From assembly GCA_000934665.2 (NCBI GenBank), contig KZ538933.1:1-39726 (forward strand): 39,726 nucleotides of DNA, written 5' to 3'. The notes below the pieces were generated by a model that was not told where the DNA came from, did no database searches, and saw only the letters and a list, made by a program, of their open reading frames with translations. The stretch comes from Catajapyx aquilonaris. Its lineage: Eukaryota. Below are positions 2,897 to 36,861 of the stretch, one piece after another. The stretch's first letter is position 1, and each line of letters begins with the position of its first letter. A program made the translations under genes and the position numbers.

Positions 2897-4047
2897 GTTG
2901 AACGAAAGAGTATAGTCTAGTAATATGGCTTCACTACCGTCTAAACAGGTTTCCTGATGTCGGCAACTTCCAGGGCCTTTGAAGTTCCTTTATTTTTACA
3001 GGAAAAATGTGGTTTTCAAATGCTAATTACAGTCCTGGCTGCGGGGGAAAATATGTGTATTTTTTCCACATTCTTCGACACACTGTCATTTACAGAAAAA
3101 AATTGAAGCCAGTGACATGCACGAGACAAAGGAGTATTGTCATGCGACTAATTTGCCCAGCCGGCTGATTATCATGTAGTGCCAAAACATGGCAGGCCCA
3201 TGATGATCTGAAAATTTCAAGGTGTCCAGGTCACTCACTATCTGTGTGCTGCCAGCGGTGACAAAATTCGCGAAGTGCTGGAAAATGAAGGATTGCCTAT
3301 ATTTTTCATCGAACATTACACTATTTTGCACTTGCAACCTGGTACTTGGAATATATTATGAATTTTCGTCGCAATATTGTGTCAATATCGCGGGGAGGTG
3401 AAGTGGCACAGCGGTAACGCTCGCGCCCACGGATATTAAGGTCCCGGGTTCGATCCCCACCCGGTGTTCCCACCTCTATCCGTGCAGAGTTGGGCCATCT
3501 CTGGCTTCATTTCGGGTGGCAATTTCCGATAGACTAAGCCACCCGGGGGAGTTCACGAAATGACCATTAGAGACATTGCACTTGTACTTTGCACATCCCC
3601 TCCTACCTACCCTGGAGTAATTAATTAAGATCTTCTTATATGGCTCCAATTTCTGATGGTGGTAATCCACCCCCGTAAAGGATATGGTAAATCCGACTGG
3701 GGTAATGCAAAAAATTTGTTTGTCAATGTCGCATTTTCACGCATTTCCTAACCTCTAAAAATTGGCACCTGGCACATTGCAATTTTCAGGATGTCATCGG
3801 TCTGCCATGTTTTGATATTACGTACATGCTAATGATGGGCCTACCTAGGCAGATTACAGGAATTAAAAATGCTCCTTTGTCTTGTCCATGTGTTCCAGGA
3901 ATGTGGGGAACAAAGCTGGCACTTGAAATTCCCATTTTCTAAACAAAAAAAGGAACTCAAAGAGCAGTGCGTCACAGTTCCAAGAATTCCGGAGAGCTGT
4001 GGGTAGTGAGAACCATCCATATATGCGGTACTAGACTTTCTTTCAAC
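2897..4047. mobile_element. Old, diverged foldback (long inverted-repeat) element with a SINE inserted in its spacer
   Basis: Arms about 2897-3235 and 3765-4047 match block by block in reverse complement: agtctagta/tactagact, gacaaaggag/ctcctttgtc, caaaacatggcag/ctgccatgttttg, gttccttt/aaaggaac. Termini and TSD are not resolved. Confidence 0.75.
3392..3714 (+). mobile_element. tRNA-derived SINE, family A, copy 1
   Basis: Pol III A box TGGCACAGCGG and B box GGTTCGATCCC, followed by a ~230-nt non-tRNA body and a short A tail. TSD TGTCAATATCGC (3380-3391) / TGTCAATGTCGC (3721-3732). Colinear with the copy at 33018-33351. Confidence 0.9.
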
Positions 4048-5314
4048 ATAGCTGGAGTTTCCATGAACTGCTGAAAGTTGCTTGAAGAGGTTTCCTTTTC
4101 TGAGATTTACTCACCTTGTCATCCCTTTTGTTTTGTCCCGTGATGGACAGGGGATTTCTTTTCAGATACGCTCTTCTCTTCCTTTTTGGCTGCAAATTTG
4201 AATATTCTTTAGTGTTGATAACCTGTATCAAGATCCAGATGAGGGATTATCGATGTAGTTAGGTCATGGAAGGCATGATTTGGTACATGTATTTCAATAC
4301 GGATGAAGAGACCTTTTCTATTGTAATGTCCAGATTTCAATTAAATTGATTTCTTCATCGATTCCAATACTACAACTCGGTGAGAAATATATACCGAGCT
4401 AGCCTGGCACTAGTGGTAAATTGATCAAAGTGATTACCCTAGTCTTTTTTCCCTCCATGGGCTGGCTGTGGGGTTGTTTTTCCTAGAATTTCGTCAGTGT
4501 GACTTACACGTCGGCTATTATTATGAAGGGGCATTAAGCTTGTCCTGTCTGCATGTCAGTTTGGCGGTTTTGTTGGCTGCTTGTCCGGAAATGACGGCCA
4601 ACCTCAGCCCTGTACACATACAGGGTGGTACGCAACTAAGGAGACACATTTAAGCGCATTTTTTCAACCCCCTGTGATACTGCATTGCAAACCACATGAA
4701 AGTGTATAAAGGCATGTTGCCTGTCGATATCCGTCTACACGGCAGTATCGATATCCGCAACTTTGCGGCCGATGTGTGTGAAATGTCAAACGTGGCTCGT
4801 TTGCTTGCGAAACACCCTGCGTGCATTTTTTTTGCGCATTTGTAGCATAGTACGGAGCCGGAAGTGGCCGTTTGTTTAGGGCCAGCGGAAGTTGTGCCCG
4901 GAAATTTCCGGGGCCGTCCCCACAATTACCAGCTGTCCCAGTGTTTCTGCCTGGCGCGCGGTGAACCAACGCCCAGCTCAAATAATGCGCGGCGACTCTC
5001 ATCTCCTACCTCTTCAGCTTTATTAAATATCATAATAATCTCGCCTTGCGTTATGGCTGGTCTTGGAGTGTTTTAAATATTACATTTAAATATTACATTT
5101 GGCTTTTGACTTGGACAAGTTGATTCAAGAATTATGAATGTATTGCTGATTCTAACAAGGGACATACCTCGAGTGATAATGACGGATCCTGATGAATCTG
5201 AACATGCTAACCCAGGAAAATATAATTATGATAACCAAAAATGAAATATCTCGGACTGAAACCCATATTTGCACAAGTTACGACAAAAATGGTGCATTTC
5301 CATACACAATGGGA

Positions 5315-5451
5315 CAAGGGGTTAACCACTTCGGTACTCCGGTGTTCACCTGCAGTGGTACTCCCAGGTACTCCTTAGGTACCTTACTCTTTGATACTCC
5401 TTGAATTTGGTACTCCAGTGTACACTTTTCAGTCCAGTGGTTAACCCCTTG
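5315..5451. mobile_element. 137-bp MITE with 8-bp TSD (hAT- or P-superfamily-like), nested in the left arm of the 5106-6056 element
   Basis: Perfect 16-bp TIR CAAGGGGTTAACCACT/AGTGGTTAACCCCTTG. Perfect TSD CAATGGGA at 5307-5314 and 5452-5459. Several internal GGTACTCC repeats. The insertion is absent from the opposite arm. Confidence 0.9.
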
Positions 5452-5491
5452 CAATGGGATTAAGTTAGACACCACATATAATGATATTGAA

Positions 5492-35723: not shown

Positions 35724-36208
35724 GACCAGTGTATACCCAATAGATTTTCTAACGCAGAGTCAGGGTTGACTCTGAGTTGAGAAGAGGTTGACTCAGTATT
35801 CGCTTAATGGAAGTGCAATCCCGTACCCTGGGGTCGAGTTGGATCTGGAGTCAACCCTGCTCAATACAGGGTTGTCTCCGCCAGCCTGGATTGAGATCGT
35901 TCGACAATGGTGGGCAGAGTTGAGTTTAAAAAGGGTTTTAGAGCTCGCGGATGAGGTCGAGGATACGGTAGGCTACGGTTAGACCTCACGGGAGTGTCTC
36001 TGAGCGACATGTACAACTCCACAGAGGTGTGCAATGCGGTTTCTTCCCGGAAACGCGGGCTCCGGTTCTGGAGTCGGAGTCGAGTTACCCCACCTTTGTT
36101 TATCGTTATACGGATCCAACTCGACCCTGGTTTCAACCTTGACTCACTCTCGACCCGGGGTTACTCAATCCCACGAATTTCGCAGGCATTACTGTAAGTA
36201 TATGGGCC
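35724..36208. mobile_element. Probable PIF/Harbinger-like MITE, degenerate
   Basis: TAA|GACCAGTGTATAC...GTATATGGGCC|TAA. The interior is built from GGGTTGACTC/GAGTCAACCC-like units in both orientations and contains the inverted pair gggtcgagttggatc/gatccaactcgaccc. Confidence 0.45.
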
Positions 36209-36598
36209 TAAGTAACAAATTACGGCCATCTTCTCAGGCGTTATCACAGATCCGGCATCTGTGGCCCTAATTAATCTTAAACCATCTTGCAATATCGCAG
36301 ATAATAAATTTTTAGTACTGACTTTTCTCTACCCAGAATTAAGCAGCATCCGAGTGTGACAGGCTACTGCATGGAACACCGTTAATGTGGACGTCAATAG
36401 TGTTGTCAGTGGCGTTTGGATGACATCATACAGTATTTTGTTTACCGATGATGTCCTCATTCGAATGCCACTGATTAATGGGGCTATTTAATGTGGATTA
36501 TAATTAGGCTACTGTGCCATATTAAGCAGAGAAGGCACCCTATTTGATTTTCTGTACAGTATTTATGAATCAATACAATGCACTTATAATGTTGTGAA

Positions 36599-36861
36599 TC
36601 CCGGAGGCCGGCGACCCTGACCATGGTTTTCTGTGGTTTCCCATGGTCCTTGCAGGATAATTCCGGGGTCGTTACCGTAATATAGGCCACAGCCGCCTCC
36701 TTCCTTCCCTTTCCCTGCTTCATTCCGGTGATGAGAAAAATAGTAAAAATGGAAGAGTTCCAGACAAAAAATTGGGACTGGAAATCCCCCCCTAGGAAAG
36801 CCCGTAGGCTGATAATGGGGTATCAAATTATTAATTATTATTATTATTATTATTATTATTA
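36599..36861 (+). mobile_element. 5'-truncated SINE (element E): family B body, different 3' tail and (ATT)n end
   Basis: Perfect 15-bp TSD TTATAATGTTGTGAA at 36584-36598 and 36862-36876. It begins inside the B box (gaa|TCCCGG). About 110 nt of body align with 37342-37451. Confidence 0.9.

What the first reader, a model, noticed from the sequence alone, without database searches (positions are those of the whole stretch)
3653..36822. Four SINE types share one 3' RNA architecture with compensatory stem changes
Seen in sequence: five tails follow [hairpin]-CCCC-(T)AAA-[hairpin]-4-7 nt-GGGG-TA-simple repeat. A1 (3653-3706) has GTGG-taat-CCAC, CCCC, gTAAA, GGAT..ATCC, gact, GGGG TAAT. A2 (33285-33345) is the same but with inner stem GGAG..CTCC. 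C (9295-9347, minus) has GTGG-tgtt-CCAT, CCCC, tTAAA, AGAG..CTCT, GGGG TAA. D (33487-33540, minus) has CCCC TAAA AGGG-CCCT atcac GGGG TAAT. E (36758-36822) has TTCCAG..CTGGAA, CCCC tagg AA AGCC..GGCT, GGGG TA. The inner stem changes sequence in every copy yet stays paired, while the terminal repeats differ (A, TAAAA, ACAA, ATT). Established: SINE tails often mimic the 3' stem-loop recognised by a partner LINE reverse transcriptase. Inference: this is a structure-selected recognition element of one LINE clade, shared by several SINE families. I do not recognise it as a described motif.
Basis: partly seen in the sequence, partly recalled or inferred. Interest (0 to 1): 0.72.

Follow-up and report, generated by a model that had tools for sequence, protein, structure and literature searches.

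The report
RTEX LINE tail shared by SINEs
Several unrelated families of small parasitic repeats (SINEs) in this animal genome end in the same short two-tier RNA hairpin as a large family of LINE retrotransposons, the familiar way SINEs borrow a LINE's copying enzyme, here with a partner group not found in the papers checked and with unusually frequent swapping of the hairpin between elements.

Summary
Real, and largely the known kind of thing. All five tails are present and TSD-flanked; the C-tract/A-rich/inner hairpin/GGGGTA core is genome-wide (226 v 1 and 2,583 v 0 control matches). The partner exists: a radiation of two-ORF, RNase H-less LINEs, RTEX (RTE-X) by eye against labelled RT rows, ends in the same fold. 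A covariance model built only from LINE tails ranks the five window tails first; the inner stem covaries, and the outer stem covaries in sister LINE families. Corrections: the first hairpin is not universal (absent from LINEs, copy-specific in E), window copy D has lost its inner loop, and single copies mostly do not out-fold shuffles. Shared stem-loop tails with compensatory changes are published for CR1/L2 partners; I found no RTEX-tailed tRNA SINE in nine searches (Repbase, Dfam, SINEBase not searchable). The added point is frequent cassette exchange at the C-tract: 29 cassettes among 60 copies, 98%-identical bodies with unrelated cassettes, one cassette identical to a LINE tail. The scan noted this shared tail and tail swapping before on other pieces of this genome (e1-7596528, e1-7708609).

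The parts
3392..3712 (+). SINE A1, full length: tRNA-type head, family A body, hairpin-1 module (3658-3671), LINE-type tail core (3670-3704), short A run
   Evidence: (12-bp TSD)
9289..9640 (-). SINE C, full length: family C body, hairpin-1 module, tail core 9332-9297, (TAAAA)n
   Evidence: best CM hit, E 2.4e-7; 12-bp TSD
33018..33351 (+). SINE A2, full length, 82% identical to A1; tail core 33302-33343 with a different inner stem
   Evidence: (9-bp TSD, weak)
33482..33745 (-). SINE D, full length; tail core 33523-33489, inner loop deleted in this copy; no hairpin-1 module
   Evidence: 14-bp TSD
36597..36866 (+). SINE E, 5'-truncated; tail core 36786-36822 and (ATT)n 36827-36865; its upstream TTCCAG..CTGGAA stem is copy-specific
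   Evidence: (16-bp TSD)
37279..37459 (+). Second family E copy, head and body only, no tail; its head is called tRNA-Ser(GCT) by ARAGORN and tRNA by Rfam
30360..30606 (-). 5'-truncated SINE with an A-related body but a different 3' end, not hit by the tail model

Best explanation
The ~35-nt unit from the C-tract to GGGGTA is the 3' recognition signal of a large radiation of RTEX-type LINEs in this genome. In RNA it folds as a 4-6 bp outer stem (C-tract with G-tract), an A-rich internal loop and a 3-6 bp inner hairpin of variable sequence, followed by a short A/T-rich repeat where reverse transcription starts. Shown: the LINEs end in it, at least five SINE families with unrelated bodies end in it, the stems covary, and SINEs and LINEs have similar TSDs. 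Inferred from L2-clade experiments (PMC4176376): the ORF2 protein binds this hairpin, so SINE RNAs that carry it are copied in trans. Shown: SINE bodies and inner cassettes are decoupled, and shared sequence with the LINE starts at or just before the C-tract. Inferred: SINEs gain new cassettes from LINE RNAs and from each other by template switching at the C-tract during reverse transcription, possibly helped by the SINE-only hairpin just upstream.
For: Tail 1,165-1,385 nt after the YADD codon, just past the ORF2 stop, in RT-selected loci; 20 of 29 rows of one subclade (SH-aLRT 98) v 1 of 48 other rows. Full-length elements with ORF1 + APE-RT ORF2, no RNase H and 13-16 bp TSDs in 5 of 7 tested. 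ORF2 identity among 7 tail-bearing families only 35-61%. CM from 18 LINE tails ranks the five window tails top, E 2.4e-7 to 0.013, next 0.59. Inner helix: 5 of 5 pairs change on both sides, covariation score 0.309 v 0.135, 0 of 500 shuffles, slid controls at most 0.105. Alignment-free: inner hairpin beats shuffles in 13 of 19 LINE tails and 29 of 60 SINE copies, mean -5.4 v -1.9 kcal/mol. Outer stem covaries in 17 sister families, p=0.0002. Exchange: 29 cassettes in 60 copies on three body types; 131 of 158 family C pairs with bodies >=88% identical have cassettes <70% identical; L354 and L376 bodies 98.3% identical over 238 nt with unrelated cassettes; 7 C/E cross-body pairs share cassettes at >=85%; L344 and L354 carry the L140 LINE tail unchanged from the C-tract on; TSDs in 36 of 60 copies v 2 of 298 mismatched controls, including L344, L354, L376.
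Against: No binding, probing or retrotransposition data. Single window tails mostly do not out-fold dinucleotide shuffles (4 of 5; the L141 LINE tail 51 of 200). Only 9 of 24 SINE cassettes passed, and a common A subfamily has a 3-bp inner stem. Within the strict subclade the outer stem is nearly invariant, so it gives no covariation (cognate 4.17 v swapped 4.40 bp; 0 of 4 pairs). Only 1 of 29 SINE cassettes matches a sampled LINE tail at >=85%; mean best identity 0.64, no higher than LINE-to-LINE 0.68 (shuffled 0.46), so one-to-one tracking of LINE families is not shown. A3 was fitted to the model, and the family anchors were set by eye. The RTEX label rests on comparison by eye and a quick tree without labelled references.
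Confidence: 0.8

Rival explanations
1. The hairpin is kept for RNA 3'-end formation or stability (AATAAA-like signals follow it in the LINEs), not for RT recognition; SINEs carry it because it stabilises their RNA.
For: AATAAA or TAAA repeats directly follow the outer stem in most of the 35 LINE families and in 8 of 20 outside relatives.
Against: Pol III-type SINEs keep the hairpin while ending in other repeats such as (ATT)n or A runs; the shared stretch ends exactly where reverse transcription would start; in L2 LINEs the analogous stem-loop is bound by ORF2 (PMC4176376, abstract and section 19 read).
Confidence: 0.1
2. Cassette diversity in SINEs comes from many long-lived master copies mutating with compensation, or from DNA-level gene conversion between constant flanks, rather than RT template switching at the C-tract.
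For: 28 of 29 cassettes have no near-identical sampled LINE donor; related cassette series differ by small compensatory steps, as in family F subfamilies.
Against: Bodies 96-98% identical carry unrelated cassettes, cassettes are shared between C and E bodies, and one cassette equals a LINE tail; point mutation alone does not give this. Gene conversion is not excluded.
Confidence: 0.3
3. Body/cassette mosaics are assembly mis-joins at poly-C runs.
For: Fragmented assembly (20,583 contigs); C-run length varies and some runs hold N.
Against: TSDs span the junction in 36 of 60 copies v 2 of 298 mismatched controls; the same cassettes recur on independent contigs.
Confidence: 0.04

Closest known systems
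CR1-14_CGi with BivaV-SINE2 and BivaCORE-SINE1; L2 with BivaCORE-SINE2 (Nishihara et al. 2016, PMC4824008; part 2 of 6 and passages read)
   Same: SINEs of different superfamilies share a LINE 3' stem-loop with compensatory changes; tail change by template switching proposed.
   Different: Partner clade there is CR1 or L2; here RTEX-type. No two-tier C/G-tract fold or cassette-level exchange is described in the parts read.
Bivalve HCD-SINEs with several LINE partners (Martelossi et al. 2024, PMC11481361; passages and supplement search read)
   Same: Homologous tails across SINE superfamilies, mosaic evolution, 35-61 bp of SINE-LINE tail homology.
   Different: Partners named are CR1, CR1-Zenon, L2 and Nimb; the Nimb and CR1 tail rows seen in supplement file 4 are different sequences, and GGGGTA had 0 hits in the 8 files held. 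The .fa library could not be read.
RTEX-N1_Ec32 of Ectocarpus (PMC12477816; passages read)
   Same: A short non-autonomous element sharing its 3' end with RTE-X LINEs.
   Different: Brown alga, 5' origin unknown, not shown to be a tRNA SINE; no structure given in the passages.
Stringent L2 LINEs ZfL2-1/ZfL2-2 and UnaL2 (Hayashi et al. 2014, PMC4176376; abstract and section 19 read)
   Same: Short 3' stem-loop before a simple repeat; stem read generally, loop read specifically, which fits a constant outer frame with a variable inner hairpin.
   Different: Different clade and sequence; experimentally tested there, untested here.
RTE-tailed SINEs and tail exchange (Kojima 2018, PMC5786205, passages; Ohshima 2013, PMC3747384, Table 1 read)
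   Same: RTE-group LINEs donate 40-100 nt tails to tRNA SINEs; tail exchange is recognised.
   Different: No RTEX partner in Ohshima's Table 1 and 0 mentions of RTEX or RTE-X in Kojima's text. No LINE 5' UTR piece was found in five window SINEs and family F against 7 full-length LINEs.

Membership tests
tRNA-derived SINE (SINE2) | tRNA-type head with Pol III A/B boxes | tested here: met
   B box at 53-56 in A1, A2, C, D and family F; family E head called tRNA at 37284-37355. A boxes matched only loosely.
tRNA-derived SINE (SINE2) | Short, non-coding, interspersed in many copies with TSDs and a simple-repeat end | tested here: met
   230-350 bp; TSDs at all five and 36 of 60 others; hundreds to thousands of matches.
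tRNA-derived SINE (SINE2) | Pol III transcription | not testable with these tools
   Needs RNA data or an assay.
Stringent SINE/LINE pair | SINE 3' end shared with the 3' end of an autonomous LINE in the same genome | tested here: met
Stringent SINE/LINE pair | Conserved stem-loop with compensatory changes | tested here: met
   no R-scape available.
Stringent SINE/LINE pair | Tail required for retrotransposition and bound by ORF2 protein | not testable with these tools
   Needs a reporter or binding assay.
RTEX (RTE-X) clade | RT domain groups with labelled RTEX references | tested here: inconclusive
   By eye the RT words (KLFTSIL, QGE.LSP, KTK..FRKGG, YTYLG.P; alignment A1) match labelled RTEX rows and not the Proto2, RTE, CR1 or Nimb rows shown (PMC10294476 supplement file 23). 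No tree with labelled references could be built; the clade joins RTE-like rows (label recalled) at SH-aLRT 87.
RTEX (RTE-X) clade | Two ORFs (substantial ORF1), APE + RT, no RNase H, about 5 kb | tested here: met
   ORF1 290-360 aa, ORF2 1,096-1,283 aa stop to stop, Pfam APE and RVT_1 only; RTE proper lacks a full ORF1 (PMC3905857 passage); RTE-X mean 4,937 bp (PMC10294476 passage). Proto2 is not excluded by this feature.
RTEX (RTE-X) clade | Esterase in ORF1 (some members) | tested here: not met
   No esterase family hit in 6 ORF1 proteins; atlas leads point weakly to L1-like ORF1 clusters. The paper gives it for some members only.
Nimb / I-group partner (first guess) | RNase H after RT and Nimb-type tail | tested here: not met
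   No RNase H hit; published Nimb tail rows differ; the long-branch RT rows outside the clade lack the tail.
V, Inv, Deu/Nin SINE superfamilies (bodies F, E, A/C) | Conserved central domain | not tested
   Resemblances are recalled only; no reference domain was available to a tool.
Any Rfam family | Match at gathering score | tested here: not met
   No match at the tails above threshold; only tRNA at 37284-37355 passes.

The most novel reading that the evidence does not exclude
The C-tract is a built-in swap joint: a constant frame (hairpin-1, C-tract, GGGGTA) lets SINEs of several superfamilies repeatedly capture the variable inner hairpin from dozens of co-existing RTEX families and from each other, the inner hairpin acting as a family-specific address read by each ORF2. 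The genome would then hold a natural library of RT/RNA-address pairs, and the first described RTEX-dependent tRNA SINEs, with the two-tier hairpin as a clade-wide RTEX signal.
Probability: 0.3. Interest if true: 0.65.

Novelty: new variant of a known kind. Interest (0 to 1): 0.42.

Why it matters
It adds a LINE clade (RTEX-type) to those with a defined structured 3' signal and with tRNA-SINE passengers, none being listed in the papers read. With 35 sampled LINE families that keep one fold while both stems change, and SINEs that exchange the inner cassette far faster than their bodies diverge, it offers a ready test set for how LINE enzymes tell their own RNA from others and for where SINE tail exchange happens, a step usually inferred from a few old events.

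Tried and rejected
Nimb/I-group partner: rejected (no RNase H, different tails). Universal first hairpin: rejected. A bistable switch in which an upstream purine run competes for the C-tract in LINE tails: not supported, 1 of 18 and 2 of 17 families beat shuffles and swapped upstream pieces folded about as well. One-to-one tracking of LINE families by SINE cassettes: not shown, 1 of 29. The strict C/G version outside this genome: the CM found nothing below E 0.4 in 20 outside relatives; a two-tier hairpin of other sequence before AATAAA was seen in 8 of 20, of which 4 of 8 beat shuffles; 12 of 20 showed none, three of them cut short. Assembly artefact: rejected by TSDs. Rfam: no tail match. 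Pfam on 18 window ORFs: no hits. Sequencing runs for the LINE 3' end: no RNA holder listed, no evidence either way. 3' ends of curated bivalve RTE-X consensus sequences were not visible, rows being cut at 400 characters. A genome-wide count with the covariance model is not available; counts are from exact patterns. The careful tree did not finish; the quick tree was used.
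Full report
Observation. The five tails are at the stated places: A1 3670-3704(+), A2 33302-33343(+), C 9332-9297(-), D 33523-33489(-), E 36786-36822(+). Each ends a tRNA-type SINE with a TSD of 12, 9, 12, 14 and 16 bp, one mismatch each. 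The window is contig C1887 of a 285.6-Mb assembly. I did not establish the taxon; earlier AI notes call it arthropod-like and the named eukaryote hits to the LINE protein are arthropods. Exact patterns give 226 v 1 control matches, 2,583 v 0 for the hairpin-1 plus tail form, 311 v 0 for family E, and 743 raw v 0 for the ATT-ended form, inflated on the + strand by overlapping starts. That last search showed a further abundant family, F, of about 250 bp, with no full copy in the window.

The first hairpin is not part of the shared unit. LINE tails have TGTGT or GTC there. E's upstream stem was in 0 of 100 listed family members. In A, C and some E copies GGTGG-loop-CCAC is a separate module, intact in 58 of 60 copies with 13 loop variants and no compensatory change (its 5' arm was fixed by the pattern). 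The window D copy has lost its inner loop. Folded singly, only A2 beats dinucleotide shuffles, so the case rests on families, not on these five copies.

The partner LINE. An RT family search scored 150 of 929 candidates. I fetched DNA downstream of 80 non-LTR-length hits and added 5 earlier loci; 83 of 85 had an RT frame and 77 were long enough for the tree (quick method, SH-aLRT only). The strict tail lies 1,165-1,385 nt after YADD, just past the ORF2 stop, in 20 of 29 rows of one subclade (support 98) and 1 of 48 other rows. Of the 9 subclade rows without it, 3 are cut short, 2 have one-base variants, 3 have lost part or all of the C-tract and 1 shows no tail. Sister subclades in the same 64-row clade end in the same two-tier fold with other outer-stem sequences. 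Full-length copies have ORF1 and an APE-RT ORF2 with a C-terminal CxxC..H..C knuckle and no RNase H, and 13-16 bp TSDs in 5 of 7 tested. Seven tail-bearing ORF2s are 35-61% identical. By eye the RT motifs match labelled RTEX rows, not the Proto2, RTE, CR1 or Nimb rows shown, in supplement file 23 of PMC10294476; this is a strong lead, not a tree with references.

Structure tests. A covariance model from 18 LINE tails alone ranks the five window tails first, E 2.4e-7 to 0.013, next 0.59. On 52 matches from 43 held loci all 5 inner pairs change on both sides, score 0.309 v 0.135, 0 of 500 shuffles, slid controls at most 0.105; two other measures were not significant (408 and 71 of 500) and the outer helix is nearly invariant (alignment fitted to the model). 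Without alignment, the inner hairpin beat shuffles in 13 of 19 LINE tails and 9 of 24 SINE cassettes; own arms gave at least 4 bp in 29 of 43 v 493 of 1,806 swapped, a test that favours own arms because the cut point came from them. In 60 further SINE copies it beat shuffles in 29 and the outer stem formed in 59. Across 35 LINE families, one per family and anchored by eye, 21 beat mononucleotide shuffles, mean z -2.06. The outer stem covaries among the 17 sister families (4.76 v 3.71 bp, p=0.0002) but not in the 18 strict ones. Outside this genome, 8 of 20 relatives with a complete C-terminus end in a hairpin, AATAAA and a repeat, 4 of 8 beating shuffles; 12 showed none, and the model does not detect any. 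The fold may be wider in the clade; the C/G sequence version is local.

Cassette exchange. I fetched 60 of the 2,583 hairpin-1 copies, 58 in listed order and 2 picked. Bodies were 8 A, 28 C, 19 E, 5 unassigned, with 29 cassettes under 85% identical. In family C body identity does not predict cassette identity (Spearman 0.04 over 317 non-independent pairs); 131 of 158 pairs with bodies at least 88% identical have cassettes under 70% identical; L354 and L376 are 98.3% identical over 238 nt with unrelated cassettes; 7 C/E pairs share cassettes at 85% or more. L344 and L354 carry the tail of LINE L140 unchanged from the C-tract into the terminal repeat. TSDs span 36 of 60 copies v 2 of 298 mismatched controls, against mis-assembly. 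Against a simple tracking story, only 1 of 29 cassettes has a near-identical LINE among 52 sampled tails, and mean best identity (0.64) equals LINE-to-LINE (0.68; shuffled 0.46). TSD-flanked inserts of only 35-55 nt also occur (L005, L013, L025, L287, L324).

Mechanism. Shown: shared position, fold, covariation, similar TSDs, body/cassette decoupling. Known: in L2 LINEs ORF2 binds the 3' stem-loop, stem generally and loop specifically (PMC4176376, abstract and section 19). Inferred: ORF2 of these LINEs binds the two-tier hairpin and starts reverse transcription in the terminal repeat; SINEs carrying it are copied in trans (0.8). More weakly inferred: after copying through the G-tract, inner hairpin and C-tract, the cDNA ends in a G-run that can re-anneal to the C-tract of another RNA, giving a SINE a new cassette; hairpin-1 may pause the enzyme there. 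Gene conversion is not excluded.

Known versus new. Shared LINE stem-loop tails with compensatory changes across SINE superfamilies are published for CR1 and L2 (PMC4824008, part 2 and passages), several partners per superfamily for bivalves (PMC11481361, passages and supplement search), and tail exchange generally (PMC5786205 and PMC5804259, passages; PMC4758252, passages). No RTEX partner is in Table 1 of PMC3747384. The nearest precedent is the non-autonomous RTEX-N1_Ec32 (PMC12477816, passages). Nine literature searches found no description of this fold or of an RTEX-tailed tRNA SINE; Repbase, Dfam, SINEBase, most subscription journals, the .fa library of PMC11481361 and the 3' ends in the PMC10294476 library could not be seen, and may hold one. 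Superfamily labels for the bodies (V for F, Inv for E, Deu/Nin for A and C) are recalled and untested. Earlier notes of this scan report the same shared tail and tail swapping on other pieces of this genome; I met them after my own tests.

Verdict. Real, mechanism of a known kind, with a probably unlisted partner clade and unusually dense tail exchange: new variant of a known kind, interest 0.42.

Noticed in passing
L315-L330, L019:520, L090:2502 (G000, many contigs): An abundant ~250-bp SINE family F, not in the finding, with the same tail core and (ATT)n end; subfamilies differ by a compensatory G-C to A-U change in the inner stem.
   Followed up: partly
window 30360-30606 (-); L141:3313-3605 and 8400-8460: An A-related SINE body (G type) with a different 3' end; at L141 a full-length LINE has inserted into the tail of such a SINE with a 13-bp TSD. 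L024:1898-2180 has this body with a C/G-tract tail.
   Followed up: partly
L005:1495-1549, L013:1487-1541, L025, L287, L324: TSD-flanked insertions of only 35-55 nt that stop at or just above the C-tract; the L013 core matches a LINE-type tail listed.
   Followed up: partly
window 37279-37459 (+): Tail-less family E copy whose head is called tRNA-Ser(GCT); short inverted repeats at 37169-37220 and 37518-37571 flank it.
   Followed up: no
window 3115-3231 / 3767-3891, 5155-5955, 26592-27928, 32350-32452: Inverted-repeat, MITE-like elements; SINE A1 lies between the first pair; the palindrome at 27599-27727 gives sub-threshold miRNA matches on both strands.
   Followed up: no
L079, L080, L091, L135: A neighbouring LINE group ends in a different, stronger hairpin with an internal bulge (about -23 kcal/mol) before TAAATAAAG and A/C repeats.
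   Followed up: no
L116, L120, L121: LINE copies that lack part or all of the C-tract while keeping the rest of the tail, suggesting the C-tract region is deletion-prone.
   Followed up: no
L241-L268 (bacterial MAG contigs): Contigs filed under bacterial MAGs carry eukaryote-type LINE ORF2s, probably host DNA binned with symbiont genomes.
   Followed up: no
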